Virus record (IMG/VR): IMGVR_UViG_2974779775_000001
Location: 60,108 to 124,107 of that record
Strand: one strand, 5' to 3'
DNA length: 64,000 nucleotides
DNA from: Samistivirus egole
Lineage: Duplodnaviria; Heunggongvirae; Uroviricota; Caudoviricetes
The notes below the pieces were generated by a model that saw only the letters and a program-made list of their open reading frames with translations, did no database searches and was not told the origin of the DNA. This document shows, piece by piece, positions 3,286 to 42,403 of this stretch. How positions within the stretch are numbered: the first letter of the stretch is position 1; the number at the start of each line of letters is the position of its first letter. The position numbers were made by a program, and so were the translations under genes.

Positions 3286-3293
3286 GGAGGATA

Positions 3294-6053: not shown

Positions 6054-6097
6054 TGTGTTACAATAGTAATCACTAAGAGAAACGGAAACTAACAACA

Positions 6098-7709: not shown

Positions 7710-7710
7710 C

Positions 7711-8326: not shown

Positions 8327-8964
8327 CCTGTGCTATGCTGACCTCTATGATGAAGATTGGCATGATGGGCGCACACGGGACAGGGAAGACTTCCATGGCA
8401 GAAGCCATGGTTGAAGGACCATTCAAATTGTTTTCCCTGGTCCCATCAACGGCCCGGCAGATAAAAGCATATGGCTATCCTATTAACAGAGAAGCCACAG
8501 AGCTAAGTCAGATTCTCGTTCCCCTTCTACGAATGATTGATGAAGCAGAGGCTACAGTCAATCCACACAACAGAATGTATAAGCAAGGACTCATCTCAGA
8601 CAGAACGCTGGTTGACTCTCTTGCCTACACGATGTATCAGTGTGCTAACGTATGGGAGAGTGGAGAATTCATTGAGCACGTCACATATCGTCTGACTCAG
8701 ATGTATATGAAGACATACTCACTTCTCCTCTACTTCCCAATTTACTGGGGAAATGTGGACGATGGAGTCCGAGACCCTGATGAGAAGTACCGCAGAGAAA
8801 TCGACAATAACGTAAAGACAGTCCTGGATATGTTGGATGTTCCCTATTTCACGGTTCCTGATGTATCTCCTCAAATGCGTGTGAGCTGGCTTGTTGACAA
8901 GCTGGACGTTCAGCGTGAGGAAGATGCCCGGAAGTGGATGGAAATCTTTCAGGGCATGATATAA
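8323..8964 (+). CDS. P-loop NTPase (possible nucleoside/nucleotide kinase)
   Basis: Walker A GAHGTGKTS. Confidence 0.5.
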   Translation: MTCAMLTSMMKIGMMGAHGTGKTSMAEAMVEGPFKLFSLVPSTARQIKAYGYPINREATELSQILVPLLRMIDEAEATVNPHNRMYKQGLISDRTLVDSLAYTMYQCANVWESGEFIEHVTYRLTQMYMKTYSLLLYFPIYWGNVDDGVRDPDEKYRREIDNNVKTVLDMLDVPYFTVPDVSPQMRVSWLVDKLDVQREEDARKWMEIFQGMI

Positions 8965-8988
8965 TTATCTTGAAAGTGAGGAGATACT

Positions 8989-9309
8989 ATGGGAACACCG
9001 ACTAGAAGGCGCTCAAGGGAAAAGAATCCTGATGCCTGGTGGCAGGGAGCGTACAGCGGAATCCCACACATCATCGCTTCATATGAATTCGAAATTGATG
9101 GAGACACGGTTCTGCCAAAGGCTCTCATCAAGTTCAAAAATACGCGAGGCTCATTCAAGTTCCGATGTGTGGCAACCAATACTCAGACTGGCAAAACCTG
9201 GATTGACTGCATCAATGCAGATACAGGTGAATGGAAGTCTTTCTATGTGGAAAAGCTCAAGGGACTCGTAAAGCCAAGGCGTCCACGTAGAAGGAGAAAG
9301 GTTGCCTAA
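8989..9309 (+). CDS. hypothetical protein
   Basis: + strand ORF with a basic C-terminus. Confidence 0.4.
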   Translation: MGTPTRRRSREKNPDAWWQGAYSGIPHIIASYEFEIDGDTVLPKALIKFKNTRGSFKFRCVATNTQTGKTWIDCINADTGEWKSFYVEKLKGLVKPRRPRRRRKVA

Positions 9310-9829
9310 AGAACTAGACACGCTTGACCGAATTGAGCAGATGAACACGGTCGTAGCGGCTCATCTTAAGGGCGACAATGCCACTGCAATTGCTCGTAGT
9401 ACGGGCATGAAGCGTGCTCAAGTCATTGAGTATATTGACGAGTGGAAGCTCATCGCTCAGAATAATAAGGCAATCCAGGCGCGAGCCACGGAAGCCTTGA
9501 CTGGCATGGATGAGCATTACAACATGATTATCAGAGAACTCTGGGAAGTCCTAGAGGAAGCTGATATGAACAATGACCTCAAGACAAAGACTACTGTCCT
9601 GAAAAACCTGGCAGATGTTGAGGGCAAGCGAGTAGACCTTTTGCAGAAGGCTGGTCTCATTGACAGTCAGCATGCAGGAGATGAAGTAATCGAGATGGAG
9701 CGAAAGCACGAAATTCTCATTAGCATTCTCCGAGAAGTGACATCTGATTGTCCACATTGCAAGGTCGAAGTTGCTCGAAGGCTGAGCAGGGTCACTGACA
9801 AGACAGAGACCATTGTCGTTCCGAATTGA
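9302..9829 (+). CDS. putative terminase small subunit
   Basis: HTH-containing N-terminus lying directly upstream of the large terminase. Confidence 0.4.
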   Translation: MPKELDTLDRIEQMNTVVAAHLKGDNATAIARSTGMKRAQVIEYIDEWKLIAQNNKAIQARATEALTGMDEHYNMIIRELWEVLEEADMNNDLKTKTTVLKNLADVEGKRVDLLQKAGLIDSQHAGDEVIEMERKHEILISILREVTSDCPHCKVEVARRLSRVTDKTETIVVPN

Positions 9830-9831
9830 TT

Positions 9832-9871
9832 AAATCCCTTCATGATATACTTTATATCAATGAAGGGATTT
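9832..9871. terminator. perfect 12-bp inverted repeat hairpin (terminator or packaging-related site)
   Basis: AAATCCCTTCAT-N16-ATGAAGGGATTT followed by a T-rich tract, between terS and terL. Confidence 0.4.
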
Positions 9872-9875
9872 AGTT

Positions 9876-11696
9876 TTGTCTACTGATTTTGCTGAGTTCT
9901 TCAATGCGTTGTCAGACGACGACTTTGAAGAAATTCCAGTCGATATCGAGGTCTTCGTGCAGAGCGAAGACTATCTAGGCATGCCTCATTTGTCCGAATA
10001 TCAGTACCAGCTCATTCGTGCTAGCAGTCAGATTTACAAGCAAAGCACACTGTACAACCTCTATGAGGCAGAAAAGGCAGAACGACGCTGGAAAGAAACG
10101 TGCAACGAGGTAATTGCCTGTTTGGGTAAGGGTAGTGGTAAGGACTTCACGTCAACTATTGCCTGTGCCTACATTGTTTATTTGCTGCTGTGTCTACGTA
10201 ATCCAGCAAAGTATTTTGGAAAGCCTGCTGGCGACTCCATTGACATTCTGAACATTGCTATCAACGCAGCGCAGGCCAACAACGTATTCTTTAAGGGATT
10301 CAAGAGCCGCATTGAGGGCTCTCCCTGGTTTGAAGGAAAGTATACGACCAAGGCTGGGCACATCGCTTTCGAGAAAAACATCAACGTCTACTCAGGGCAC
10401 TCTGAGCGTGAAGCCTGGGAGGGCTATAACCTCATCTATTGCGTTCTTGACGAGATTTCCGGTTTTGCACTCGACTCTACCTCTGGTAATGAGCAGGCAA
10501 AGACGGCTGACGCTGTCTATAAGATGTATCGAGCATCTGTTGACTCTCGATTCCCGGCAGAAGGAAAGGTAGTTCTTCTATCATTCCCTCGCTTCAAGAA
10601 CGACTTTATCTCTCAGAGATATGAGGCGGTAGTTGCAGAAAAGGAAGTAGTCGAGCGTAGCCATGTATTCAAGCTTGACCCTGAACTACCAGACGAGATT
10701 GAGGAAAACAAGTTCAGCATTAAGTGGGAGGAAGACCATATCATTTCCTACCACGTTCCTCGCGTCTATGCCCTGAAGCGTCCTACCTGGGAAGTCAATC
10801 CAACTCGTCAGATTGAAGACTTTACGACCGCATTCTTCACTGACCCAATTGATGCCCTTTCTCGATTTGCGTGTATGCCACCTGACGCCATTGATGCATT
10901 CTTCAAGGACAAGGAGAAGGTGGAAGCCTCTTTCGTTCGTCCTAATGGAGTTGACGAAGACGGCTCATACAGGGCAGACTTTACACCGAAGGAGGGTGTG
11001 CGCTACTATGTACACGTAGACCTTGCGCAGAAGCATGACCACTGTGCTGTAGCTCTTGCTCACGTTGAGAAGTTCGTACAGAAGAAGATTGGTGGTCAGC
11101 TTAACGAAGTGCTTCCTTATGTTGTGGTTGATGCTGTCCGATGGTGGACACCAAAGCCCGGTAAGGATGTTGACTTCGCTGATGTAAGAGACTACATTAC
11201 AGGATTGAAGCGCAGAGGTTTCGACCTCCGCCTAGTGACCTTTGACCGCTGGAACTCTAATGACCAGATGAAGTATCTGCGAGGAGTCGGTATTAATTCC
11301 GAGGTTCTTTCAGTGGCAAAGAAGCACTACGAAGACTTGAGCTGGGTCATCTATGACCAGAGACTTATGGGTCCAGATGTATCATTGCTCAAGAGGGAAT
11401 TGCTAGCACTGCGTATCATGCCAAATGACAAGATTGACCACCCTAGAACGGGGTCAAAGGACTTGGCTGATGCAACGTGTGGAGCAGTTCACAATGCAAT
11501 TACATACACGCCACGAGACGAGTTTGCTACCATTGAGGTACAAACGTACGAGTCAATCAGGCGGGCAGAAGTTGAGGCCAAGCGTGAGGAGCTTGACATG
11601 GCTCGTGAACGTGATAATGTAATTGAAGTGCCTCGTGAGCAAAGAAAGATGCCAGATGAATTGGCTGATTATCTCACGAAGCTAGAAATTATCTGA
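9876..11696 (+). CDS. terminase large subunit
   Basis: 606 aa with an ATPase-like GKGSGKD and Walker B (VLDEISGF) plus a C-terminal acidic nuclease region. Flanked by an HNH gene as in many phages. Confidence 0.6.
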   Translation: MSTDFAEFFNALSDDDFEEIPVDIEVFVQSEDYLGMPHLSEYQYQLIRASSQIYKQSTLYNLYEAEKAERRWKETCNEVIACLGKGSGKDFTSTIACAYIVYLLLCLRNPAKYFGKPAGDSIDILNIAINAAQANNVFFKGFKSRIEGSPWFEGKYTTKAGHIAFEKNINVYSGHSEREAWEGYNLIYCVLDEISGFALDSTSGNEQAKTADAVYKMYRASVDSRFPAEGKVVLLSFPRFKNDFISQRYEAVVAEKEVVERSHVFKLDPELPDEIEENKFSIKWEEDHIISYHVPRVYALKRPTWEVNPTRQIEDFTTAFFTDPIDALSRFACMPPDAIDAFFKDKEKVEASFVRPNGVDEDGSYRADFTPKEGVRYYVHVDLAQKHDHCAVALAHVEKFVQKKIGGQLNEVLPYVVVDAVRWWTPKPGKDVDFADVRDYITGLKRRGFDLRLVTFDRWNSNDQMKYLRGVGINSEVLSVAKKHYEDLSWVIYDQRLMGPDVSLLKRELLALRIMPNDKIDHPRTGSKDLADATCGAVHNAITYTPRDEFATIEVQTYESIRRAEVEAKREELDMARERDNVIEVPREQRKMPDELADYLTKLEII

Positions 11697-11710
11697 CCGA
11701 AAGGTATGCC

Positions 11711-12232
11711 ATGCCGAGCTTAAAGTTCAATCGTAAGGAGATTGTCAAGGCATTGACTCTTCGTGATGGACTCATATGTCGATACCCTGGCTGTGAGACT
11801 CCATTCACAAAGGACAATGGCCCTACTATTGACCACTGGTTTCCATTGAGTGCTGGTGGCACGTGGGACCTTGACAACCTCAAGTTGATGCACAAGAAGT
11901 GCAACTCTGCCAAGGGCGACAAGATACCTCTTGACGACGGTACCTTGCCTGTGGTAGAAAAGAAGCAGCGGGTCAGCCGAGCTGTGAAGCGAAGCGAACG
12001 CCCAGTAGTTTGTGAGCAGTGTCAGTCTGGTAGACTGCTTGGTCCAGACGAAGAGTGTGACCAGTGTGGTAGTGGTCCTATGCCACCTTCTTACCCTCAA
12101 TGGAGTAAGATGCGTGCAAACGAGTGTACCCATGAGGGTATCTGGTGGTGTTGGGCCTGCATCTCTGGCGTAGTTGACAGGGTGCCTGCTTCTAAGATAG
12201 TGTTTGATGGAGGAGAACCGGGGATAGACTAG
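11711..12232 (+). CDS. HNH endonuclease
   Basis: HNH motif DHWFPLSAGGTWDLDNLKLMHKKCN plus C-terminal cysteine pairs. Confidence 0.8.
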   Translation: MPSLKFNRKEIVKALTLRDGLICRYPGCETPFTKDNGPTIDHWFPLSAGGTWDLDNLKLMHKKCNSAKGDKIPLDDGTLPVVEKKQRVSRAVKRSERPVVCEQCQSGRLLGPDEECDQCGSGPMPPSYPQWSKMRANECTHEGIWWCWACISGVVDRVPASKIVFDGGEPGID

Positions 12233-12259
12233 TCCCCGGTACCTCTAAAAAGGAGAGTA

Positions 12260-12865
12260 ATGACTGACGTAGATATTGTTCTTATCGTAGACCGCTCTGG
12301 TAGCATGTCTAGGATTAAGGACGAGGCAGAAGGTGCCCTCAACAGGTTCCTTGATGAGCAGCAGAATGTTGAGGGTGATGTTTTTGTCACCTACGTGCAG
12401 TTTGATGATGTATACGAGACCAAGTTTGAGAAGGTTGGTCTTGCCAATGCGGTTGGTACAGTAAGTATTCAGCCTCGTGGTATGACCGCCCTTCTTGACG
12501 CAATCGGTAAGACCGTAGTAAACTATGTACCACAGACCAAGAAGACAATCTATGTCATCATGACTGATGGCCTGGAGAACGCTTCTCAGGAGTGGACAGT
12601 AGAAACGGTCAACCAGCTCGTTACGGAATCAAAGCAGCACGGTGATGAATTCGTATACCTCGGTGCCAATCAGGACGCCATCGCAGTAGGCTCAAAGCTG
12701 GGAATCCCTGTGGCTTCCAGCCTAACGTTCGCTGCGGACAAGGCAGGACTTGACGCGGTATCAAGGAGTATGACAAGCTATGTAACAGCGACTCGCTCTG
12801 GACTCGCCTACGAGTTCACTGATGAGGACCGTAAGAACGCTACAGGCTTGACAGACAGCGAGTGA
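12260..12865 (+). CDS. vWA-domain protein
   Basis: MIDAS motif DRSGSMS at the N-terminus. Confidence 0.7.
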   Translation: MTDVDIVLIVDRSGSMSRIKDEAEGALNRFLDEQQNVEGDVFVTYVQFDDVYETKFEKVGLANAVGTVSIQPRGMTALLDAIGKTVVNYVPQTKKTIYVIMTDGLENASQEWTVETVNQLVTESKQHGDEFVYLGANQDAIAVGSKLGIPVASSLTFAADKAGLDAVSRSMTSYVTATRSGLAYEFTDEDRKNATGLTDSE

Positions 12866-12972
12866 GCTGTTAAAGTAGTAAATGTGGGTCGAACGAAAGT
12901 TGGTTATCTTTCAATAATGGTGAATACGCTCCGATAGGGGCTCTCCGACTTTCAAACACTTATCCACACAAT

Positions 12973-13043
12973 GCATCGGTAGTTTAATGGTAGAACGTCT
13001 GACTTCCAATCAGACAGCGCGGGTTCGATTCCCGCTCGGTGCT
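12973..13043 (+). tRNA. tRNA-Gly (anticodon TCC)
   Basis: Cloverleaf by eye: acceptor GCATCGG/TCGGTGC, D-loop TTTAATGGTA, anticodon loop CTTCCAA, T-arm GCGGG-TTCGATT-CCCGC. Confidence 0.7.
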
Positions 13044-13076
13044 CTTAGCCCATAAACAGCGCTTGCGCAGGGCACC

Positions 13077-13151
13077 TTCCCCCGTGGTCCGTGTGGCTGG
13101 CCACTGAGACTCTGAATCTCAGGTACGTAGGTTCGACTCCTGCCGGGGGAG
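13077..13151 (+). tRNA. tRNA-Gln (anticodon CTG)
   Basis: Acceptor TCCCCCG/CGGGGGA, anticodon stem CTGAGA/TCTCAG with loop CTCTGAA, T-loop TTCGACT. The D-arm is unclear. Confidence 0.55.
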
Positions 13152-13279
13152 CTGGTCCGACTTCGTGATATCGGTGACAATAACTGATTCGGAACGCATA
13201 ATAACCATGGTAAAAGTGCGGAAAGAGGATGTAACGATAATCGGAAGCGATGGGTAAAACCTCCTCGGACCGACAACAT

Positions 13280-13350
13280 ATGCCCTAAGTGTTACGGTAG
13301 CACGTTGGTCTCCAAAACCAAAAGCGTAGGTTCGACTCCTACAGGGCGTG
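13280..13350 (+). tRNA. tRNA-Trp (anticodon CCA)
   Basis: Anticodon stem TTGGT/ACCAA with loop CTCCAAA, T-arm GTAGG-TTCGACT-CCTAC, acceptor ATGCCCT/AGGGCGT. Confidence 0.65.
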
Positions 13351-13556
13351 CTTTGACGAAACTCGCCTTAGAAGGCATGAACGATGGTGGTCAGCATAAA
13401 CCATTTAGTAAGCCCGAGAGTAGTATCAAAAGGACATCGGCCATGCTGAGGTCGTCTGAGTAGAGAAGTAGGGGATAAGGTCCCGAATGGCGTCAAAACC
13501 ATTTAACAAACGCCCGGTATCGAAAGGTACCGGGCACAATCATATCCGGAGGAAAC

Positions 13557-14009
13557 ATGGGATATTACACCGACTTCACACTAAGCGCTGAGGGTCGTGG
13601 CCCAGTCTATGATAAGATGATGAACCAAAAGGACAAGATTATCTTCTCCAGTGGAGACTACGATTTCGTCCTCGGAGAGTGGCTTGACAGAAACTACTCA
13701 CAGAACCTAAAGTGGTATGACTGGGAGAAGGACATGAAACAGCTCTCACGTGAGTGGCCAAACGTCCTGTTCATCCTTGAGGGTGATGGTGAAGAGGCTG
13801 GTGACCTCTGGAAGGCATGGTTCCGAAATGGAGAAATGCACAAGCTAGAGGCTAAGATTATCTTTGAGACAATCAAGCCAGACCTGGACAAACATCTTCC
13901 ATACGACCACAGCCTTGACAAGCGTCTTGGTGAGCAGTACAAGAAGGAGCTTGAGGCAGAGATTGCCAAGCTACAGGGTCAGCTTGACGAACTGAACCAG
14001 AAGGAGTAA
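13557..14009 (+). CDS. hypothetical protein
   Basis: RBS GGAGG precedes the ORF. The C-terminus is coiled-coil-like. Confidence 0.5.
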   Translation: MGYYTDFTLSAEGRGPVYDKMMNQKDKIIFSSGDYDFVLGEWLDRNYSQNLKWYDWEKDMKQLSREWPNVLFILEGDGEEAGDLWKAWFRNGEMHKLEAKIIFETIKPDLDKHLPYDHSLDKRLGEQYKKELEAEIAKLQGQLDELNQKE

Positions 14010-14168
14010 AGTGGCTCTTACAGGCAGCAATGGACAGTGTTGGTTCCAGCGCTGTTCAAGAAAGGCTACTGTCACGATTAGGTACCACAACAAATCTGTG
14101 GTAGTCTGTGAAGGACACAAGAACCTGGACGGCAAAGGCTGTCCACCGAGTAGGCGAAAGCCGAAGAG

Positions 14169-14197
14169 TTGACACTCGCTAGAGCGTCTGCTAAGAT
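14169..14197 (+). promoter_or_regulatory. sigma-70/SigA-type promoter upstream of a tRNA cluster
   Basis: TTGACA-N17-TAAGAT. Confidence 0.45.
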
Positions 14198-14225
14198 TAA
14201 GTACAACGGCAGGGAAACCTGCTAT

Positions 14226-14297
14226 CAGGCACGGGGAAGATGGTAATCCGTTGGCTTTGGAAGCCTAAGAAACTCGGTTCGATTCCGAGGTGCCTGA
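14226..14297 (+). tRNA. tRNA-like, anticodon loop UGG (Pro-like), weak stems
   Basis: Acceptor CAGGCAC/GTGCCTG and T-arm CTCGG-TTCGATT-CCGAG are good. The D stem has 3 bp and the anticodon stem has a mismatch. It may be a pseudogene. Confidence 0.35.
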
Positions 14298-14302
14298 CTT
14301 CC

Positions 14303-14375
14303 GGGATATAGCTCAGCTTGGTCAGAGCGCTGCATTTGGGATGCAGAAGTCGCTGGTTCGAATCCAGTTATCCCG
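14303..14375 (+). tRNA. tRNA-Pro (anticodon TGG)
   Basis: Acceptor GGGATAT, D-arm GCTC-AGCTTGGTC-AGAGC, anticodon stem CTGCA/TGCAG with loop TTTGGGA, T-arm GCTGG-TTCGAAT-CCAGT. Confidence 0.7.
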
Positions 14376-14378
14376 ACT

Positions 14379-14451
14379 GGTTCCATAGGATAATGACTAA
14401 TCCGCCCTTCCAGGGGAAGGGTAATACCGGTTAAATTCCGGACTAGGAACC
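14379..14451 (+). ncRNA. tRNA-like element / probable pseudo-tRNA
   Basis: Good acceptor (GGTTCCA/GGAACC), a D-arm and an anticodon-like stem. The T-loop is non-canonical (TTAAATT), the anticodon loop lacks U33, and the geometry is off by 2 nt. Confidence 0.3.
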
Positions 14452-14622
14452 ACCAACTTTTGGGTCGATTGAGACACGGTTATCTTACACAATGGATACT
14501 AGGTTCGATTCCTAGGGGTGCTGTAAAAGGTGCTCTGTAAAGTCATCTCAGATGTGTGTGGTAGGATGACATTAGGTACTACACTCTCTCCGTTCTCGCC
14601 ACTTACCTAAAGGATTTACATT

Positions 14623-15144
14623 ATGACGGTACTCCTAAGAACAATTCATGGTTCGCATCTGTACGGTCTCGCTCACGCAGGTTCGGATAAAGACATCTAC
14701 GAAGTGGTTGCTACAAAGCGAACCAAGCGGAAGCGCAATATTAAGCAAACCATCGTGAATGGAATTGACAAGACGGTCGTTGACCTCTCGACATTCATGC
14801 ACATGGTTGACGAATGCGTACCTCAAGCACTTGAAGCGCTATGGACGCCGGTACCAGATGTGGATGAAATCCACCAGTTCCGGACACAATATCGAGTGAA
14901 TCGCGCCAAGATGAAGGAAGTATACATTCGTACCGCTCTGAACTTCGCCAAGCATGAAGACGTAAAACGAAAGCGACATGCTATTCGTCTCCTTCTAAAC
15001 CTTGGTGAGGCCCTGGAATACGGTAAGTTCAATCCACGGCTGTCCACTATGGACAAGTTCATTCTCCGCTCATCACTCGGAGAGTCTGGAGCATATGAGG
15101 ATGTCTTTCTGGGCGTTCTCGATGAAGTGCAAAAGTGGGTCTAA
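14623..15144 (+). CDS. nucleotidyltransferase-fold (Pol beta-like NTase) protein
   Basis: Minimal NTase motif HGSHLYGLAHAGSDKDIYEVV (GS-x-D-x-D). Confidence 0.45.
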   Translation: MTVLLRTIHGSHLYGLAHAGSDKDIYEVVATKRTKRKRNIKQTIVNGIDKTVVDLSTFMHMVDECVPQALEALWTPVPDVDEIHQFRTQYRVNRAKMKEVYIRTALNFAKHEDVKRKRHAIRLLLNLGEALEYGKFNPRLSTMDKFILRSSLGESGAYEDVFLGVLDEVQKWV

Positions 15145-15157
15145 CGGCTCACGCCAA

Positions 15158-15234
15158 TGGGGCGTATACCCTCACTCTGATAAAGTGTAGAAAGGTTAAT
15201 CGGTTACATGTGGGTTCAATTCCCACCGTCCCAA
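15158..15234 (+). ncRNA. atypical tRNA-like element
   Basis: Acceptor TGGGGCG/CGTCCCA and T-arm GTGGG-TTCAATT-CCCAC are present, but the 45-nt interior does not fold into canonical D and anticodon arms by eye. Confidence 0.3.
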
Positions 15235-17446: not shown

Positions 17447-17520
17447 CTTGTGGGTCGAAGATGATTGTTTATCTTCAAATCAGCGTGTTGGAGGTTCGAA
17501 TCCTTCCTGGGGACTTCATT
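17447..17520 (+). ncRNA. degenerate tRNA-like segment (T-arm only)
   Basis: T-arm GGAGG-TTCGAAT-CCTTC and a 6-bp hairpin with an 8-nt loop, with no acceptor or D-arm partner. It directly abuts tRNA-Ile. Confidence 0.3.
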
Positions 17521-17623
17521 GTCCTCGGTAACTCAATGGCAGAGTAGCTGACATTGCCCGAATGGGCTAGACGATTGTCACACCTTATCCACATTACAAA
17601 CAACTACTAACTAAGGAATAACC

Positions 17624-22045: not shown

Positions 22046-22396
22046 ATGCCATTTTCCAATGAAGAGGAGCGAAAGGCGTACGCTAAGGCTCACTACGAAA
22101 AGAACAAACATGTCTACAAAGAACGTAATAATCGTTCACGGCAAAAGAGAGAAGACTTCGTCTTCGACCTTAAGAAAAACAATCCGTGTGCTGATTGTGG
22201 AGAGTTCTATCATCCATGTCAGATGCAGTATGACCACATAGCTGATGACAAAGAAGCTACTGTGAGTTGGCTAGTTCGCAATGGAACAATCAAGAAGATT
22301 GAAACTGAGATTGCCAAGTGTGAACTTGTTTGTGCCAACTGTCACGCATTGAGAACGTGGACCAGACATGAAAAGAATTGCGGGTCGAAAGAGTAA
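22046..22396 (+). CDS. HNH endonuclease
   Basis: CADCG...YDHI...N...CANCH. Confidence 0.75.
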   Translation: MPFSNEEERKAYAKAHYEKNKHVYKERNNRSRQKREDFVFDLKKNNPCADCGEFYHPCQMQYDHIADDKEATVSWLVRNGTIKKIETEIAKCELVCANCHALRTWTRHEKNCGSKE

Positions 22397-22451
22397 GTCG
22401 GTTATCTTCCTTTGAATAAGAAACAGGTAGGTTCGAATCCTACGTAGCCCA
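22382..22451 (+). ncRNA. tRNA-like element (uncertain)
   Basis: T-arm GTAGG-TTCGAAT-CCTAC and an anticodon-like loop CTTTGAA (TTG). The acceptor and D-arm are poor. Confidence 0.3.
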
Positions 22452-22494
22452 AGGCACGGGCGACTCCGACTCTCACCTATATATCCGCACTAGT

Positions 22495-23262: not shown

Positions 23263-24915
23263 ATGTCAAACGCACTTAACACTGCTGCCAAGGGTCTGAA
23301 CAAGACTCCTCAGTCTCAGAAGGCTAAGGCAGGTCAGGTAAAGAACAACGCTGGTGGATTCGTCTTCCAGGTTTCTGACCAGGCTCGCCTAGAGCGATTC
23401 CTGATTCTGGGTGTAGACGGTGGCACTTATTACGTCAAGGAGAGTGCACACGCTCGTTCCAACGTACAGTTCCTCAACGAGATGATTGAGCGAGACGAAG
23501 CCTCTGTACTGAACACCATTGTGGACGTGTCTGTCAATGGTCGTGCATACAAGCAGTCTCCTGCCCTGTTCGCTCTAGCCTCTGTCATTGCCAATGGTAA
23601 GAACAAGCAGGCGGTCAAGGCGGTATTCAATCGTGTCGTTCGTACAGGCACTCACCTGTATGAGCTTCTGAACTACCTTACTTCAATGAACGTTGGGTGG
23701 GGTCGTTCAAAGCGAGAGATTGTTGCTTCTTGGTTCGACCGAGATGCTGACAAGCTGGCTTATCAGGCGGTCAAGTACCGTTCTCGTAAGTTCGGTGAGC
23801 AGACTTGGACACTCCGAGACGTAATGCGTCTTTCCCACCCACGAGATGTGAACACGTCTGTTGCAGATTTTGTTCTCGGCAAGCCTCACGATGCTACCGA
23901 TGACCTTCGGGTTATCGAGGGCTTCAAGAAGATGCAGAGGGCTCAGTCTGTCGAGGACGTTCACAGCGTTCTCCGTGAGTACGAGATGCTTTCATGGGAG
24001 ACAATCCCAACTCAGTTCCTCAAGGACGTGAGTGTGTGGAAGCGAATCTTCGCTAACGGACAGCTCCGTGGCCAGGCTCTTGTTCGAAACATCACTCGCC
24101 TCGCGCGAATTGGTGCTTTCCAGGACATGCGCTTTGCTGCTGCGTATGCGGGACAGCTCACAAATCAGGAGATGATTGTACAGACTCGTCTGCATCCAAT
24201 CAACTTCCTGAATGCGTCTGTCGTGTACAACGAAGGCCAGATGAAGACCGTAAGGGACCGCTGGGGCTTCGAGCGCGAGGAGCGTGTAAAGGACTGGACA
24301 ACTGAGAGTGTTATTGCGGATGCCCTCAATGAGGGATTCCACAAGGCATTCAAGGCTGTCGAGCCTGCCGGTAAGCGAACGATGCTGGCTCTGGACGTAT
24401 CAGGCTCCATGAGTGCAAAGGCTAACGGTCTCGACCTTAGCTGTGCTCAGGTTTCTGCTGCAATGTCTATGGCCATCGCTCGTACCGAGCCTGCTCACAT
24501 CATCCGTGGATTCACGTCCAATGGATATGGCTGGTCTGGTCGCAACAGTGACCTTACCGACCTTGGTATCAGCGCTAAGACAGACCTTGCTACGGCAATG
24601 CGTAATGTCCAGCGTCACAACTGGGGTGGTACGGACTGTAGCCTTCCAATGCGTTGGGCTCTGGACCGTGGAATTGAAGTAGACACGTTCGTCATTATCA
24701 CCGATAATGACACGTGGGCTGGTGAAATCCACCCATTCCAGGCGCTCAAGGAGTACCGTAAGAAGACTGGCATTCCAGCTCGTCTGGCAGTTCTGGGAGT
24801 TCAGGCAACTGAATTCACCATCGCTGACCCAAGCGACGCAGGAATGATGGACTTCGTAGGGTTTGACAGCAATGCACCTCGTGTGCTCGCTGACTTCTCC
24901 GCAGGTCGCATCTGA
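23263..24915 (+). CDS. rsr: Ro60 (TROVE domain) ortholog with C-terminal vWA domain
   Basis: TROVE-like N-terminus (GGFVFQVSDQARLERFLILGVDGGTYY) and a C-terminal MIDAS motif (LALDVSGSMS). The length of 550 aa matches the bacterial Rsr architecture. Confidence 0.7.
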   Translation: MSNALNTAAKGLNKTPQSQKAKAGQVKNNAGGFVFQVSDQARLERFLILGVDGGTYYVKESAHARSNVQFLNEMIERDEASVLNTIVDVSVNGRAYKQSPALFALASVIANGKNKQAVKAVFNRVVRTGTHLYELLNYLTSMNVGWGRSKREIVASWFDRDADKLAYQAVKYRSRKFGEQTWTLRDVMRLSHPRDVNTSVADFVLGKPHDATDDLRVIEGFKKMQRAQSVEDVHSVLREYEMLSWETIPTQFLKDVSVWKRIFANGQLRGQALVRNITRLARIGAFQDMRFAAAYAGQLTNQEMIVQTRLHPINFLNASVVYNEGQMKTVRDRWGFEREERVKDWTTESVIADALNEGFHKAFKAVEPAGKRTMLALDVSGSMSAKANGLDLSCAQVSAAMSMAIARTEPAHIIRGFTSNGYGWSGRNSDLTDLGISAKTDLATAMRNVQRHNWGGTDCSLPMRWALDRGIEVDTFVIITDNDTWAGEIHPFQALKEYRKKTGIPARLAVLGVQATEFTIADPSDAGMMDFVGFDSNAPRVLADFSAGRI

Positions 24916-27446: not shown

Positions 27447-27650
27447 ATGGCTTGTCGCATTGCAGTGGTTCTCAAGGGTCAAGAGCCTGGTACTCCGATT
27501 ACCGGCCTCAAGACGCGAGACGAGTATCGTGAGGCTTTCACCAAGGCAATTCAGGAGAAGGCATCAACCATCACTGTGACTGACCAGGATGGTGACTACT
27601 ACATTCTGGTGGTTGACCAGATTCAAGCGTTTGCTGTAGAATCTATCTAA
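27447..27650 (+). CDS. hypothetical protein
   Basis: + strand ORF. Confidence 0.4.
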   Translation: MACRIAVVLKGQEPGTPITGLKTRDEYREAFTKAIQEKASTITVTDQDGDYYILVVDQIQAFAVESI

Positions 27651-27748: not shown

Positions 27749-27846
27749 GGAGAGTTGAAAGTCTTGAAAAGTTGGTCACTCAGTAGAGATTGTTTTACAT
27801 GCAGGTTTAACCAACCTCCATGCCGGGTTCGAATCCGGACTCTCCG
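27749..27846 (+). ncRNA. 98-nt tRNA-like RNA with non-tRNA interior
   Basis: Perfect 7-bp acceptor GGAGAGT/ACTCTCC and a TTCGAAT T-loop. The interior holds an 8-bp hairpin CATGCAGG/CCTCCATG and a long-range TTGGT/ACCAA pairing. No canonical D or anticodon arm is visible. Confidence 0.4.
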
Positions 27847-27855
27847 TTGACTTAT

Positions 27856-27932
27856 GGGTTTGATTGGTATAAGGTTACTGAAAGCCGACAATGGACCGGT
27901 AACTGTAGAGGGTTCGAATCCCTCCAAATCCA
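27856..27932 (+). ncRNA. atypical 77-nt tRNA-like element
   Basis: Acceptor GGGTTTG/CAAATCC and T-arm GAGGG-TTCGAAT-CCCTC. The 45-nt interior is not foldable into standard arms by eye. Confidence 0.3.
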
Positions 27933-28004
27933 CTTGGTGATAAAGCTCCCCAAGCTGATAGTCCATATCAGCCGGACACTTGGCGGTGACGCCCTTCACC
28001 TTAT

Positions 28005-28079
28005 GCGCCGTTGACGGGAACTGGCATACCTAGTTGACTTAGAATCAACTGCTTGGGAGTTCGACTCTCCCACGGCGTA
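28005..28079 (+). tRNA. tRNA with anticodon TAG (Leu codon CUA) but a short variable arm
   Basis: Acceptor GCGCCGT/ACGGCGT, anticodon stem AGTTGA/TCAACT with loop CTTAGAA, a 4-nt variable loop, T-arm GGGAG-TTCGACT-CTCCC, A73. Confidence 0.5.
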
Positions 28080-28106
28080 CTCCATAACTACAAAGACAAG
28101 GATGCA

Positions 28107-28208
28107 CATGGCAGCCTGCCCAAAGGGTGGTAAGCATGAATGGAAAATGTGGTCTGGAAAGTATCGTTGTCGCAAGTGTGGTGAAACAAGTAAGATACAG
28201 CCTACATA
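28107..28208 (+). CDS. small zinc-ribbon peptide
   Basis: About 33 aa: MHMAACPKGGKHEWKMWSGKYRCRKCGE... Confidence 0.3.
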
Positions 28209-28218
28209 GGTTGTTTAT

Positions 28219-28292
28219 GCGTCGGTAGCCCAATGGCAGGAGGCACCAGTCTTAGGAACTGGACAGTGTGAGTTCGAGTCTCACCCGGCGTA
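28219..28292 (+). tRNA. tRNA with anticodon TAG (Leu-like), short variable arm
   Basis: Acceptor GCGTCGG/CCGGCGT, anticodon stem CCAGT/ACTGG with loop CTTAGGA, T-arm GTGAG-TTCGAGT-CTCAC, A73. Confidence 0.5.
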
Positions 28293-28345
28293 CTTTGATG
28301 GTAAACGCGATGCCATCGAATGCACACAGGGTCGCTCCCAGTGTG

Positions 28346-28470
28346 AGGAACGTAGTTTAATGGTAAAACCGTGAAATGCGCTGTCGAAATATGCGGTGGT
28401 GCCTCATTGGAGGCTCGTCCGTGAGTAGATATCAGAGTAGCAGTTGTCGGTTCGATTCCGACCGTTCCGC
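28346..28470 (+). ncRNA. 125-nt tRNA-like RNA with a ~55-nt non-tRNA insertion
   Basis: Acceptor AGGAACG/CGTTCCG (6 bp), a canonical D-arm GTTT-AATGGTA-AAAC, and T-arm GTCGG-TTCGATT-CCGAC. The interior contains direct repeats CCGTGA and no anticodon arm. Confidence 0.4.
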
Positions 28471-28613
28471 TAGCCTGCGCTAGATGCAGGAATGTAAGTC
28501 GGCAAGGGAGTGTACAATCCCAAACCGCATTTCTCAACGGCCTTGCAAGGGGCGTCAAAGCAACAGGGTGAGAGTGTCTTGGTTGTTCCGACTCATAACT
28601 GGAACCTCCACAA

Positions 28614-28684
28614 TCCGTAGTGGTGAAATGGTATCACATGGCCTTGCCAAGGCTAAAGCGCGAGTTCGATTCTCGTCTACGGGA
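28614..28684 (+). tRNA. tRNA-Gly (anticodon GCC)
   Basis: Acceptor TCCGTAG/CTACGGG, D-arm GTGA-AATGGTA-TCAC, anticodon stem TGGCC/GGCTA with loop TTGCCAA, T-loop TTCGATT. Confidence 0.6.
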
Positions 28685-28699
28685 CTTGGGAGCTGACAT

Positions 28700-28785
28700 G
28701 GAACTGGCTGAGTCATGACCAGCACGCAATGGTGCGATAGCGGCCGATAAACCGTCAATTCTGGGTTCGAATCCCGGCAGTTCCC
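28700..28785 (+). ncRNA. 86-nt tRNA-like RNA with non-tRNA interior
   Basis: Perfect acceptor GGAACTG/CAGTTCC and T-arm CTGGG-TTCGAAT-CCCGG. The interior has a GTCATGAC palindrome and a CGCA-ATGG-TGCG hairpin, with no anticodon arm. Confidence 0.4.
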
Positions 28786-36168: not shown

Positions 36169-36240
36169 GCATGTAAGCCAGGGATAAGCTAGGCGGGCCT
36201 GTAAAGCCCTACCTCGATGGTTCGAATCCGTCTACATGCA
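36169..36240 (+). tRNA. tRNA with anticodon GTA (Tyr codons) but a short variable arm
   Basis: Perfect acceptor GCATGTA/TACATGC, anticodon stem GGGC/GCCC with loop CTGTAAA, T-arm GATGG-TTCGAAT-CCGTC. Only 72 nt. Confidence 0.45.
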
Positions 36241-36242
36241 CG

Positions 36243-38495: not shown

Positions 38496-38761
38496 GGGGA
38501 TGCCTTGGTTTCGACTGGGGTGGATGACTTTAGTTTGCAGCCTGACATTGAGGAGATGTCATTAAAAAGCCTCAACACTATAAATGCCAACTCTAAGTTC
38601 GCATTCGCTCTTGCTGCCTGACGGTAGCTGAGCGGGGCTAGTGGGCGGCCTGGCAACAGAATAGCCCACCACAAACTTTCTTGTAACACCCCTTGACACA
38701 TGGCTGTGTATAGACTACTGTTTGAAGCATCAGGACGCGGGTTCGACTCCCGCCATCTCCA
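38496..38761 (+). ncRNA. ssrA: tmRNA (SsrA), tag peptide ANSKFAFALAA
   Basis: 5' end GGGGATGccttGGTTTCGAC matches the conserved tmRNA 5' region. The resume codon GCC falls at positions 91-93 of the RNA, followed by the in-frame tag ANSKFAFALAA and TGA at 38586..38621. The 3' end carries T-arm GCGGG-TTCGACT-CCCGC and an acceptor strand CATCTCC-A that pairs with the 5' GGGGATG. Confidence 0.7.
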
Positions 38762-38833
38762 CGTGGATTACGAAACACTAATGAACAAGTGGATGAAAGT
38801 AATCAGAGATAAGAAAGGTTCTGTTACAGAATC

Positions 38834-42089: not shown

Positions 42090-42126
42090 TTGACAACCAG
42101 CTTAGCTTCATGTTAGGCTGGTTGTC
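42090..42126 (+). promoter_or_regulatory. promoter -35 element inside a 10-bp inverted repeat
   Basis: TTGACA within GACAACCAGC...GCTGGTTGTC. Confidence 0.35.
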
Positions 42127-42193
42127 GCATGCCGGGGAAGTTCTTTGGTAAGAACAGTCTCTCTATAGTGTTCATTTGACCGTGCACAGTCTC

Positions 42194-42222
42194 TTGACAC
42201 CTCCTAGTAGCGCTGCTAGGAT
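42194..42222 (+). promoter_or_regulatory. SigA-type promoter driving a noncoding region
   Basis: TTGACA-N17-TAGGAT. Confidence 0.45.
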
Positions 42223-42237
42223 GACAGAGTAGAAAGG

Positions 42238-42264
42238 TTGGAGGTTCGATTCCTCCCTCTGGCA
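42238..42264 (+). ncRNA. isolated T-arm-like hairpin
   Basis: GGAGG-TTCGATT-CCTCC plus an acceptor-like CTCTGGC, with no full tRNA. Confidence 0.3.
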
Positions 42265-42274
42265 CTTAAGACTT

Positions 42275-42403
42275 GGCCCCAAGAGGCAGCCGATGGTCAC
42301 CGGGATGCATACCGCCCATTGGACCTTATCTAGGTACCACGTCTATGCAACCGACGGGTTGAGCCCATAGACAATGGGGTAGGTTCAAATCCTACTGGGG
42401 TCC
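42275..42403 (+). ncRNA. 129-nt tRNA-like RNA with a ~100-nt non-tRNA interior
   Basis: Acceptor GGCCCCA/TGGGGTC pairs completely, and T-arm GTAGG-TTCAAAT-CCTAC sits next to the 3' acceptor strand. It lies downstream of the promoter at 42194. Confidence 0.4.

What the first reader, a model, noticed from the sequence alone, without database searches (positions are those of the whole stretch)
27749..28785. Family of oversized tRNA-like RNAs with canonical ends but non-tRNA interiors
Four loci are involved: 27749-27846 (98 nt), 28346-28470 (125 nt), 28700-28785 (86 nt) and 42275-42403 (129 nt). Each has a 6-7 bp acceptor stem whose 3' strand directly follows a canonical GTTCGA/AWTC T-arm. The 40-100 nt in between do not fold into D and anticodon arms. 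Instead they contain unrelated hairpins, for example CATGCAGG/CCTCCATG, GTCATGAC and CGCA-ATGG-TGCG. They sit among bona fide tRNAs and, for 42275, downstream of a consensus promoter. They could be Y-RNA-like partners of Ro60, RNase P/Z-processed punctuation or decoy RNAs, tRNAs with unusual insertions, or a new ncRNA class.
Basis: seen in the sequence. Interest (0 to 1): 0.8.

Follow-up and report, generated by a model that had tools for sequence, protein, structure and literature searches.

The report
Phage tRNA-mimic RNAs, not tRNAs
A Streptomyces phage carries at least six conserved, unannotated small RNA genes with the ends of a tRNA and a non-tRNA interior; one matches a known phage mini-tmRNA, the others have no known function.

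Summary
The window is Streptomyces phage EGole (cluster BE1). All four loci are real, and none is annotated.

- **tRNA finders:** default ARAGORN, with or without intron search, calls none of them. No locus has an anticodon arm.
- **Conservation:** homologs occur in 78-86 related phage records (21 for 28700), with compensatory base changes in the stems.
- **Not one family:** E1 (27749), E3 (28700) and E4 (42275) have unrelated interiors. E2 (28346) is related only to E4a.
- **E1b:** this is a tmRNA tRNA-like domain with no coding region. The same kind is known from mycobacteriophage DS6A, and a similar molecule was reported to inhibit tmRNA.
- **Ro60 link is weak:** the window holds four ordinary Y RNAs carrying a shared Ro-binding module that these loci lack.
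- **E1 hairpin cap:** its invariant 20-nt cap recurs exactly in an unrelated AT-rich 365-kb viral contig and in metagenome contigs.

The best reading is tRNA-mimic RNAs that are cut out by tRNA-processing enzymes and act as decoys or adaptors. This is a new variant of a known kind, whose closest classical analog is T4 RNAC. Function remains inferred, not shown.

The parts
27749..27846 (+). E1: a 98-nt four-way-junction RNA. It has a 7-bp acceptor-like closure, the P2 hairpin, the P4 hairpin (CAUGCAGG/CCUCCAUG) and a degenerate T-like hairpin (CCGG, 8-nt loop, CCGG). It starts 3 nt after tRNA-Val(tac).
   Evidence: Alignment A5 of 10 phages: 87.5% of cells paired, 9 pairs with changes on both sides, and 0 of 500 shuffles reach the observed covariation score. 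About 47-84 phage records hold it.
27762..27793 (+). E1 P2 hairpin: a covarying stem capped by the invariant 20-mer GAAAAGUUGGUCACUCAGUA (27768-27787). I read the cap as a loop-E-like GAA/AGUA module, then 2-3 bp, then the heptaloop UUGGUCA.
   Evidence: All four inner stem pairs have compensatory changes. The 20-mer is exact in L079, a 28% GC, 365-kb viral contig, again after tRNA-Val(tac). It also appears as tandem hairpins in metagenome contigs L083-L086 and once in L089. It is absent from 185,579 bacterial and archaeal genomes.
27856..27935 (+). E1b: a tmRNA tRNA-like domain with no coding region. It has a G1-C, G2-C, G3:U70 acceptor, no D stem, a P2-like stem capped by the invariant GAAAGCCGACAAUGGA, and a canonical T arm.
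   Evidence: The Rfam tmRNA model matches only the two ends, at 36.5 bits. Covariation: A6, 99% paired, 7 pairs with changes on both sides. It aligns with the DS6A TLD-only RNA and with non-BE viral contigs L090, L095, L110 and L111.
28294..28345 (+). Conserved leader of E2: two covarying hairpins. The second has the invariant loop GGUCGCUCC and abuts the E2 acceptor stem.
   Evidence: Alignment A8, columns 5-57; conservation profile.
28346..28470 (+). E2: a 125-nt tRNA-shaped RNA. It has a 6-bp acceptor stem plus an A1.G mismatch, a canonical D arm and a canonical T arm. The anticodon arm is replaced by a long arm with the invariant strands CGYGAAAUGCRMUGUCGAAAG and UAGUAGAUAWCAGAGUAGC and a variable tip hairpin. 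I read two GAA/AGUA modules in that arm.
   Evidence: Rfam tRNA 35.9 bits with a 72-nt insertion. A1, 13 phages: 100% paired, 7 pairs with changes on both sides, including U40-A88 changing to C-G in the long arm. Found in 86 phage records.
28471..28610 (+). E2d: a conserved multi-branch structured RNA directly after E2, with a 3' hairpin that may form a pseudoknot. It ends at tRNA-Gly 28614.
   Evidence: A7: 16 of 28 predicted pairs have compensatory changes. No Rfam match.
28700..28785 (+). E3: an 86-nt RNA shaped like a class II tRNA. It has a 7-bp acceptor stem, a D-like arm, a 4-bp stem with a tetraloop where the anticodon arm should be, a variable-arm-like hairpin and a canonical T arm. 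It lies between tRNA-Gly and tRNA-Arg.
   Evidence: 21 phage records, including Beuffert (a different subfamily) and Coruscant. The D-like stem and the variable hairpin show compensatory changes.
42131..42265 (+). E4a: a 135-nt tRNA-shaped RNA with an acceptor stem, D arm, two internal hairpins and a T arm. Its 3' arm strand GAUGACAGAGUAG resembles that of E2, so it looks like a paralog of E2.
   Evidence: A2: 12 of 37 pairs have compensatory changes. Strict scan.
42194..42222 (+). Promoter-like site TTGACA-17-TAGGAT inside E4a, placed to start transcription about 45 nt upstream of E4.
   Evidence: Both hexamers are retained across homologs.
42275..42403 (+). E4: a 129-nt RNA. It has a 7-bp acceptor stem (with G2.U71), a 45-nt hairpin in the D-arm position, a 41-nt hairpin in the anticodon-arm position and a canonical T arm.
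   Evidence: A3, 8 phages: 99.4% paired, 9 pairs with changes on both sides. It is annotated only once, as tRNA-OTHER in phage Mildred21.
27613..27642 (+). Promoter-like site TTGACC-18-TAGAAT upstream of the likely unit tRNA-Val, E1, E1b.

Best explanation
The loci are genuine, independently evolving small RNA genes built on a tRNA chassis. Each keeps the acceptor-T minihelix, and E2 and E4a also keep the D arm and therefore the tRNA elbow. In each, the anticodon arm has been replaced by a family-specific structured arm.

**Likely mechanism**
1. They are transcribed within tRNA arrays from phage sigma-70-type promoters.
2. The tRNA maturation machinery cuts them out: RNase P at the 5' end, 3' trimming, and CCA addition, since no CCA is encoded.
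3. The products are stable RNAs that cannot decode.
4. They present a tRNA top half plus a conserved effector arm. This would let them bind or titrate tRNA-recognising factors.

**The clearest case is E1b.** It is a tmRNA tRNA-like domain with no coding region. By analogy with the DS6A-type molecule, it would bind SmpB, and possibly AlaRS through G3:U70, and damp host trans-translation.

The other loci probably act the same way, as mimics, decoys or adaptors. This would fit the phage's translation and RNA-repair toolkit: Ro60, Y RNAs, an RlaP nucleotidyltransferase, RNA ligase, polynucleotide kinase and its own tmRNA.

**Shown:** the genes exist, their structures are conserved, no anticodon arm is present, and E1b belongs with TLD-only tmRNAs.

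**Inferred:** processing, stability, binding partners and biological role.
For: - **Strand-specific architecture:** the T arm plus acceptor layout is found only on the + strand.
- **Covariation in every element:**
- **Invariant interior blocks flanked by covarying stems:**
- **Spread:** conserved in 78-86 BE1-type phages; E3 crosses into a second subfamily.
- **No anticodon arm and no default tRNA call:**
- **E1b membership:** the tmRNA model matches only the ends, G3:U70 is invariant, and it aligns with DS6A. Papers state that a similar TLD-only molecule strongly inhibits tmRNA, perhaps by titrating SmpB (PMC4131195, PMC11915505).
- **E1 cap:** the 20-nt cap is exactly conserved across unrelated viral and metagenome contigs.
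- **RNA-repair context:**
  - Ro60 has TROVE and vWA domains, and gp107 is an RlaP-family protein.
  - RNA ligase and polynucleotide kinase are annotated.
  - RlaP and Ro are described as phage RNA-repair components in PMC7824862.
- **Classical analog:** T4 RNAC is 139 nt, lies in the T4 tRNA cluster and has a canonical T arm next to its 3' closing stem. Its function is unknown (PMC3014915, PMC9697503).
Against: - There are no expression, processing or binding data for any of these RNAs.
- E2 has an invariant A1.G mismatch and a structured leader that abuts its acceptor stem. RNase P cleavage there is therefore not assured, and the functional unit may be the whole 320-nt block.
- A promoter-like site lies inside E4a. 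Part of E4a's conservation could therefore be at the DNA level.
- E1's T-like hairpin is degenerate.
- The decoy or adaptor role for E1, E2, E3, E4 and E4a rests on analogy only.
- None of these RNAs was found in the flanks held for the more distant Ro60-bearing relatives, so they are not essential to that phage group as a whole.
Confidence: 0.55

Rival explanations
1. They are extra Y RNAs. Each would be a Ro60 ligand in which the Ro-binding helix sits in the anticodon-arm position of a tRNA-shaped body, tethering Ro60 to a tRNA-binding effector.
For: - Ro60 is encoded 2.8-3.9 kb upstream of E1-E3 on the same strand.
- E2 homologs carry GUCGAA(A/C)G, matching the YrlA motif GNCGAAN0-1G, in an invariant block. 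It is paired with GAUA in a helix that shows one compensatory change (PMC4201824).
- In two distant Ro60 phages, L037 and L041, five RNAs next to Ro60 have a 7-bp acceptor stem, then UA, a D arm, a loop-capped Ro-binding helix with GNCGRA...UUAUC, and a T arm. That is the same oversized tRNA architecture.
Against: - The window already has four ordinary Y RNAs with a shared module that no E locus has.
- The Rfam YrlA model hits 17464-17578 and none of the E loci.
- GNCGAAN0-1G occurs 70 times on the + strand of the window, so it is not significant on its own. EGole's own E2 reads GUCGAAAU.
- In E2 the motif lies on the strand that leaves the D arm. This is the opposite arrangement from YrlA and from the L037 and L041 units.
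- E4 and E4a are 17 kb from Ro60.
- Relatives with 54-61% Ro60 identity keep Ro60 and the Y RNAs, and searches found no E1, E1b, E2 or E4 there.
Confidence: 0.15
2. They are only processing punctuation. The tRNA-like ends would recruit RNase P and 3' nucleases to cut long polycistronic transcripts, as with mitochondrial tRNA punctuation or mascRNA, and the excised RNA would have no function of its own.
For: - The elements lie between tRNAs and small ORFs in same-strand arrays.
- The Rfam mascRNA model gives a weak hit on E3, at 26 bits and below threshold.
- The acceptor-T minihelix is the part most consistently kept.
Against: - Several elements directly abut real tRNAs, which would already supply cleavage sites: E1, E1b and E3, and E4a next to E4.
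- The interiors hold invariant 16-21-nt blocks and covarying helices.
- E1's cap and E1b's loop are conserved across unrelated phages. This is not expected for a spacer.
Confidence: 0.1
3. They are decaying pseudo-tRNAs, or tRNAs carrying small introns or insertions that are removed to yield working tRNAs.
For: - Relaxed ARAGORN calls E1b as tRNA-His(atg), E2 as tRNA-Ser with a 35-nt intron, E3 as tRNA-Tyr(ata), and parts of E1 and E4 as tRNA-Cys.
- E2 passes the Rfam tRNA gathering score.
- E3 has a class II tRNA-like layout.
Against: - Default ARAGORN with intron search finds none of them.
- No 5-bp stem with a 7-nt anticodon loop is present in any locus.
- The supposed introns are the most conserved parts.
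- As general knowledge, tRNA introns known in bacteria and phages are group I introns of more than 200 nt.
- Conservation with covariation across 20-86 genomes argues against decay.
Confidence: 0.03

Closest known systems
TLD-only (CDS-less) tmRNA of mycobacteriophage DS6A (tmRNA Website; Mao et al. 2009, as cited in PMC4131195 and PMC11915505)
   Same: This applies to E1b only.
- Both are about 79-80 nt.
- Both have a G1-C, G2-C, G3:U70 acceptor stem, no D stem, a P2-like stem capped by a GAAA-R-CCG-NNNN-YGG mini-hairpin, and a canonical T arm.
- Neither has a tag reading frame.
- Both are phage-encoded.
   Different: - EGole also carries a full tmRNA, at 38496-38762.
- The E1b loop GAAAGCCGACAAUGGA is invariant in Streptomyces phages and several uncultured viral contigs. 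DS6A has a compensated variant of it.
- Inhibition of tmRNA was reported for a similar molecule in E. coli, not for this RNA.
Bacteriophage T4 RNAC and RNAD (species 1 and 2 RNAs)
   Same: They are stable small RNAs encoded inside the phage tRNA cluster. RNAC is 139 nt. It has a canonical T arm (CCGGGUUCGAAUCCCGG) directly before a 3' strand that closes with the 5' end, and its interior is made of non-tRNA hairpins. The function has been unknown for decades (PMC3014915, PMC9697503).
   Different: No sequence homology to E1-E4 was seen by eye, and none was formally tested. RNAD has no T arm in its sequence. The host and phage lineage are different. That RNAC is cut by RNase P is my recollection and was not checked here.
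YrlA / bacterial Y RNAs (Rfam RF02553; Chen et al. 2014, PMC4201824)
   Same: These are noncoding tRNA mimics with T and D arms and an acceptor-like stem, encoded near Ro60. [quoted passage not shown] The phage encodes Ro60 and four such RNAs.
   Different: - In YrlA the ends lie in the Ro-binding stem and a loop closes the acceptor stem. The E loci have the opposite topology.
- The E loci lack the family's Ro-binding module.
- The Rfam YrlA model does not match them.
tRNA (Rfam RF00005)
   Same: They share the acceptor stem and T arm. E2 and E4a also share the D arm and the U8-A9 linker. They sit in tRNA arrays.
   Different: They have no anticodon stem-loop. They are 86-135 nt long, and default tRNA finders do not call them.

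Membership tests
tRNA | A 7-bp acceptor stem closing the molecule | tested here: met
   Covariation for E1, E2, E4a and E1b. The E4 acceptor stem is invariant. E2 has 6 bp plus an A1.G mismatch.
tRNA | A 5-bp anticodon stem with a 7-nt loop holding U33 and an anticodon | tested here: not met
   None is present in any locus. The Rfam tRNA alignment of E2 replaces this arm with 72 nt, and the consensus folds show other structures.
tRNA | Called by ARAGORN at default settings, or reaches the Rfam gathering score | tested here: not met
   ARAGORN default and with -i: none. Rfam: only E2 reaches the score, at 35.9 against 29, and only in a small-window search. It is not reported in the whole-window scans.
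tRNA with intron | An intron of a known type (group I in bacteria and phages) whose removal restores a cloverleaf | tested here: not met
   The inserts are 40-100 nt, hold invariant blocks, and leave no anticodon arm when removed. Only relaxed ARAGORN (ps90, i0,150) proposes introns. No group I intron family matched in the Rfam scans.
YrlA / Y RNA | Encoded within about 4 kb of Ro60 on the same strand | tested here: inconclusive
   E1-E3 lie 2.8-3.9 kb downstream of Ro60. E4 and E4a lie 17 kb away. Nearly every gene in the window is on the same strand, so the criterion has little power here.
YrlA / Y RNA | A Ro-binding module. The general form is GNCGAAN0-1G in the terminal helix. In this phage group the form is GYGGGUCGR...GGUUAUC with 3' AUAUCCRC. 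| tested here: not met
   The module occurs at 12887, 14463, 17453 and 22383 only. E2 homologs have GUCGAA(A/C)G but not the rest of the module. The bare motif occurs 70 times per strand.
YrlA / Y RNA | Order T arm, acceptor stem-loop, D arm, with the RNA ends in the Ro stem; matches the Rfam YrlA model | tested here: not met
   The E loci have their ends in the acceptor stem. The YrlA model hits only 17464-17578 in the window, at 32.9 bits. The positive control, phage Catera, scores 36.1 bits.
YrlA / Y RNA | Physically bound by Ro60 | not testable with these tools
   This needs immunoprecipitation.
TLD-only tmRNA (for E1b, 27856-27935) | A tmRNA-type acceptor stem with G3:U70, no D stem, a T arm and a P2-like stem | tested here: met
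   The Rfam tmRNA model aligns positions 1-34 and 331-374 at 36.5 bits. G3:U70 is invariant in 9 distinct sequences.
TLD-only tmRNA (for E1b, 27856-27935) | No mRNA-like domain or tag reading frame | tested here: met
   Only about 40 nt lie between the two halves of the domain. By eye, the frame starting at GCC has no stop codon inside the RNA and no tag-like frame is visible.
TLD-only tmRNA (for E1b, 27856-27935) | Homology to the DS6A TLD-only RNA | tested here: met
   Alignment A9. Same length and same mini-hairpin, with a G.U to G-C change. L110 bridges the two, with DS6A-like ends and the E1b loop.
TLD-only tmRNA (for E1b, 27856-27935) | Binds SmpB, is charged with alanine, or inhibits trans-translation | not testable with these tools
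   Literature exists only for a similar molecule (PMC4131195).
T4 RNAC/RNAD-like stable RNAs of phage tRNA clusters | Encoded in the tRNA array, oversized, with a T arm next to a 3' closing strand and a non-tRNA interior | tested here: met
   RNAC features were read from L068. The same layout is present in E2, E3, E4 and E4a.
T4 RNAC/RNAD-like stable RNAs of phage tRNA clusters | Sequence or structure homology to RNAC or RNAD | not tested
   No formal comparison was run, and none is apparent by eye.

The most novel reading that the evidence does not exclude
E1's invariant hairpin cap may be a trans-acting receptor for tRNA 3' ends.

- **What the cap is.** I read it as a loop-E-like GAA/AGUA platform, then 2-3 bp, then the heptaloop UUGGUCA. 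It recurs exactly in unrelated giant viral contigs and in metagenome contigs.
- **Why it could bind tRNA ends.** Its UGGU is the complement of ACCA, the 3' end of tRNAs with discriminator A73. From general knowledge, the same pairing is used by the T-box UGGN bulge and by the GGU of RNase P loop L15.
- **A possible built-in competitor.** In BE1-type phages, E1's own P4 loop holds ACCAAC or ACCAGC. This could pair with GUUGGU, which would make E1 a switchable sponge or sensor of uncharged or damaged tRNA 3' ends.
- **The wider picture.** E2, E4a and E4 would be further adaptors of this kind. Large phages would then build a toolkit of regulatory RNAs on the tRNA chassis.
Probability: 0.1. Interest if true: 0.85.

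Novelty: new variant of a known kind. Interest (0 to 1): 0.62.

Why it matters
- **A blind spot in annotation.** Large phages are annotated for tRNAs and tmRNA only. This 64-kb window alone holds about a dozen further conserved structured RNAs that no pipeline reports.
- **A candidate mechanism for one of them.** The mini-tmRNA suggests that Streptomyces phages interfere with host ribosome rescue while carrying their own full tmRNA.
- **Fresh material for an old question.** What stable tRNA-like RNAs in phage tRNA clusters do has been open since T4 RNAC and RNAD. E1, E2, E4a and E4 each come with dozens of sequenced relatives and culturable phage-host pairs, which makes the question testable.
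- **A portable RNA module.** The exact reuse of E1's 20-nt cap in unrelated viral and metagenome contigs points to a motif with a conserved, still unknown target.

Tried and rejected
- **Rfam:** I scanned the window at gathering score and at permissive E-values. No family explains E1, E3, E4 or E4a. The mascRNA hit on E3 (26 bits) and the tmRNA-ends hit on E1b are below threshold.
- **E2 as a circular permutation of YrlA:** rejected. E2's GUCGAA lies on the strand after the D arm, the opposite of what a permutation predicts. E2's D arm is also shared with the ordinary tRNA-Gly(UCC) at 12973, so it is not specific to Y RNAs.
- **GNCGAAN0-1G as a test for Ro binding:** rejected as uninformative, with 70 chance occurrences per strand.
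- **Long-range pairing between the E2 leader and E2d**, which would make one tmRNA-like RNA: none was predicted.
- **E1b as a short tag-coding tmRNA:** a stop codon sits at the same place in all variants in one frame. That frame has no plausible resume codon or tag, and the stop lies inside a covarying stem. Rejected.
- **Pattern scans for E1b's 16-mer and E2's 18-mer in viral contigs:** my rough estimate is that most hits are chance matches at that pattern length. I inspected only the E1b hits, and only those with a downstream T arm were kept. I did not examine the E2 18-mer hits.
- **Neighbours of the 20-mer in metagenome contigs L083 and L089:** Pfam gave nothing informative.
- **The exact 9-nt match of E4a (CUCCUAGUA) to the E. 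coli sarcin-ricin stem:** judged coincidental, because in E4a it forms a plain Watson-Crick hairpin that overlaps a promoter-like site.
- **Not used:** no covariance models were built and no protein structure tools were run.
Full report
**Source and context**

The window is Streptomyces phage EGole (MK494112.1), cluster BE1, genus Samistivirus. Record position equals window position plus 60107.
- ARAGORN finds 42 tRNAs and a tmRNA, all on the + strand.
- GenBank annotates nothing at any of the four loci.
- The window also encodes the following:
  - Ro60, gp128, at 23263-24915, with TROVE and vWA domains;
  - an RlaP-family nucleotidyltransferase, gp107, at 14623-15144;
  - an RNA ligase and a polynucleotide kinase.

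  The literature describes this gene set as a phage RNA-repair toolkit (PMC7824862).

**Checking the observation**

- A strict scan looked for a 5-bp T stem, a TTCRANN loop, and then 7 nt that pair with an upstream 7-mer. It found about 45 distinct sites on the + strand and none on the - strand.
- Apart from the annotated tRNAs and the tmRNA, the extra sites include 28346-28470 (E2), 28700-28785 (E3) and 42275-42403 (E4).
- E1 (27749-27846) fails the strict test. Its T arm is a 4-bp stem with an 8-nt loop, and the TT of the loop varies among homologs.
- Default ARAGORN, with or without intron search, calls none of the loci. Only relaxed thresholds give implausible calls.
- The Rfam tRNA model matches E2 at 35.9 bits. 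It aligns the acceptor stem, a canonical D arm and the T arm, and skips 72 nt where the anticodon arm should be.
- The claim that there are no D arms is therefore wrong for E2, and also for E4a.

**Are they real genes?**

Homologs occur only in Streptomyces phages: E2 in 86 GenBank records, E1/E1b in 84, E4a/E4 in 78 and E3 in 21. The E3 records include Beuffert, from another subfamily, and Coruscant. Almost all are unannotated; Mildred21 labels E4 tRNA-OTHER.

Alignments with loci fetched around Ro60 and gp193 homologs give strong covariation:

| Element | Cells paired | Pairs changed on both sides |
|---|---|---|
| E1 | 87.5% | 9 |
| E2 | 100% | 7 |
| E4 | 99.4% | 9 |
| E1b | 99% | 7 |
| E4a | not counted | 12 of 37 |

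- For E1, E2, E4 and E1b, 0 of 500 shuffles reach the observed covariation score, and the given structure far exceeds every slid register.
- In E3, the D-like stem changes from GCUG/CAGC to GCUA/UAGC, and the variable-arm-like hairpin also shows compensation.
- Interiors combine covarying stems with invariant blocks:
  - GAAAAGUUGGUCACUCAGUA in E1;
  - GAAAGCCGACAAUGGA in E1b;
  - CGYGAAAUGCRMUGUCGAAAG and UAGUAGAUAWCAGAGUAGC in E2.

This rules out chance, decay and spacer-only explanations.

**Anatomy**

- **E1** is a four-way junction: acceptor stem, P2 hairpin, P4 hairpin and a T-like hairpin. P2's loop (GUUGGU) can pair with P4's loop (ACCAAC or ACCAGC). All cells are paired, but there is no change on both sides.
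- **E2** is a tRNA body whose anticodon arm is replaced by a long arm. From the consensus pairs, I read the arm as:
  - 2 bp, then GAAA/GAGUA, then 2 bp, then a bulge;
  - the helix UGUC/GAUA, in which U40-A88 changes to C-G;
  - GAAAG/UAGUA, then a variable hairpin.

  I read the two GAA/AGUA pairs as loop-E or sarcin-ricin-like modules. That is an inference from sequence.
- **E4a** shares E2's D arm layout and the 3' strand GAUGACAGAGUAG, so it is probably a paralog.
- **E4** has two long hairpins in the D-arm and anticodon-arm positions.
- **E3** looks like a class II tRNA whose anticodon arm is a 4-bp stem with a tetraloop.
- E1, E3 and E4 are not homologous to one another or to E2/E4a. 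The word 'family' fits the architecture, not the sequence.

**E2 is part of a larger structured block**

The whole interval between tRNA-Leu (ending at 28293) and tRNA-Gly (starting at 28614) is conserved.
- It folds as two leader hairpins, then E2, then a multi-branch domain (E2d), then a hairpin that may form a pseudoknot.
- There are 73 predicted pairs, and 32 have compensatory changes.
- The domains abut with 0-1 nt between them.
- Whether E2 is excised or works inside this 320-nt RNA cannot be decided here.

**The Ro60 question**

- The Rfam YrlA model hits 17464-17578 at 32.9 bits. The known YrlA of mycobacteriophage Catera scores about the same, 36.1 bits.
- Profile searches and a composite motif then showed four Y RNAs of ordinary topology in the window, at about 12884-12971, 14459-14612, 17449-17597 and 22381-22492.
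- Each has 5' GYGGGUCGR...GGUUAUC and 3' AUAUCCRC.
- Relatives often carry two or three such RNAs just upstream of Ro60.
- No E locus has this module.
- The bare YrlA motif GNCGAAN0-1G (PMC4201824) occurs 70 times on the + strand. Its presence in E2 homologs is therefore weak evidence.
- Relatives with 54-61% Ro60 identity keep Ro60 and the Y RNAs, and searches found no E1, E1b, E2 or E4 in the flanks held.

One result keeps the idea alive.
- In two distant Ro60 phages, five RNAs next to Ro60 have a perfect 7-bp acceptor stem in exact tRNA register: L037 at 9546-9664 and 9671-9798, and L041 at 7315-7458, 7469-7591 and 7610-7729.
- Each continues with UA, a D arm, a loop-capped Ro-binding helix with GNCGRA...UUAUC, and a T arm.
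- Oversized tRNA-shaped Y RNAs therefore exist. EGole's E loci do not carry their Ro module.

**E1b resolved**

- The Rfam tmRNA model aligns only E1b's two ends, at 36.5 bits, and G3:U70 is invariant.
- The literature describes a TLD-only tmRNA in mycobacteriophage DS6A. It states that a similar molecule strongly inhibits tmRNA, perhaps by titrating SmpB (PMC4131195; also PMC11915505).
- I located the DS6A element (L160:3479-3557, 79 nt, G3:U70) and aligned it with E1b. I added E1b-like RNAs from other viral contigs that carry the same invariant loop (L090, L095, L110, L111).
- They form one family.
- E1b is therefore a new member of a known kind, with a literature-backed candidate mechanism.

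**E1's portable module**

The exact 20-mer occurs in the following places:
- nine BE1 contigs of IMG/VR;
- L079, a 28% GC contig of 365 kb, where it again caps a stem with compensatory changes, inside an acceptor-closed element right after tRNA-Val(tac);
- metagenome contigs L083-L086, as two tandem GC-rich hairpins with no tRNA-like ends;
- L089, as a single copy.

It is absent from 185,579 bacterial and archaeal genomes. Among cultured phages it is found only in Streptomyces phages. Rfam has nothing for it.

Its heptaloop holds UGGU, the complement of the tRNA 3' end ACCA. A role in binding tRNA ends is a speculation, recorded as the novel case.

**Transcription**

Promoter-like sites precede tRNA-Val, E1 and E1b (27613-27642), and E4 (42194-42222, inside E4a). 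No CCA is encoded in these RNAs or in the phage's tRNAs.

**Comparison with known systems**

The closest classical analog is T4 RNAC. It is a 139-nt stable RNA in the T4 tRNA cluster, with a canonical T arm next to its 3' closing strand and a non-tRNA interior. Its function is still unknown (PMC3014915, PMC9697503). YrlA and TLD-only tmRNA are the two tRNA-mimic classes for which mechanisms have been proposed.

**Verdict**

- The loci are new families of tRNA-mimic RNAs rather than tRNAs, intron-bearing tRNAs or canonical Y RNAs.
- The mechanism is inferred. tRNA-type processing would yield non-decoding mimics that bind or titrate tRNA-recognising factors.
- Support for that mechanism is good for E1b and rests on analogy for the rest.

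Noticed in passing
window 12884-12971, 14459-14612, 17449-17597, 22381-22492 (+): Four unannotated Y RNAs of ordinary topology, each with 5' GYGGGUCGR...GGUUAUC and 3' AUAUCCRC. The one at 17449 has T, acceptor-loop and D arms (Rfam YrlA 32.9 bits). The one at 14459 has a T arm and lies just upstream of the RlaP gene. The one at 22381 has a T arm only and overlaps the 3' end of annotated gp125. The one at 12884 has no T arm and ends exactly at the 5' end of tRNA-Gly.
   Followed up: partly
window 28294-28345 and 28471-28610 (+): Conserved structured RNA domains flank E2 and match no Rfam family: two leader hairpins (second loop GGUCGCUCC, invariant) and a multi-branch domain followed by a hairpin that may form a pseudoknot. 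32 of 73 pairs across the block have compensatory changes.
   Followed up: partly
L037:9546-9798 and L041:7315-7729: Tandem tRNA-shaped Y RNAs next to Ro60 in two distant phages. Each has a 7-bp acceptor stem, UA, a D arm, a loop-capped Ro-binding helix and a T arm. Neighbouring units can also be read as ordinary YrlA, so the two topologies can interconvert within an array.
   Followed up: partly
L024:18894-19023; L014:17392-17487; L025:20524-20619: RNAs in related Streptomyces-type phages that hold two or three T arms inside a single acceptor-like closure.
   Followed up: no
L083:3264-3335 (-), also L084-L086 and L089: Metagenome contigs of 130-256 kb and 55-58% GC carry E1's exact 20-mer as caps of GC-rich hairpins, twice in tandem in L083-L086. 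They have no tRNA-like ends. Neighbouring ORFs gave no informative Pfam hits.
   Followed up: partly
L079 (365-kb viral contig, 28% GC), 1-14851: A tRNA array with a tmRNA. Several anticodons appear twice, once as a tRNA of normal length and once as a form of 82-87 nt (Glu, Val, Trp).
   Followed up: no
window 28108-28209 (+): An unannotated 33-codon ORF with a CxxG...CxxC pattern (MAACPKGGKHEWKMWSGKYRCRKCGETSKIQPT) lies between two tRNA-Leu genes. This stretch is poorly conserved in relatives.
   Followed up: no
window 14379-14455, 15158-15234, 36169-36241 (+): GenBank annotates tRNA-Gly, tRNA-Leu(UUA) and a second tRNA-Tyr here. Default ARAGORN does not call them. Rfam gives 30.8 bits for 15158 and 32 bits for 36169.
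   Followed up: no
window 14623-15144 (+): gp107, annotated only as a nucleotidyltransferase, matches Pfam RlaP (the RNA ligase-associated Pol-beta family). It lies directly after a Y RNA.
   Followed up: partly
window 42091-42126 (+): By eye, a second promoter-like site, TTGACA-18-TAGGCT, overlaps an 8-bp hairpin (CAACCAGC/GCUGGUUG) just upstream of E4a. The scan tool did not report it.
   Followed up: no
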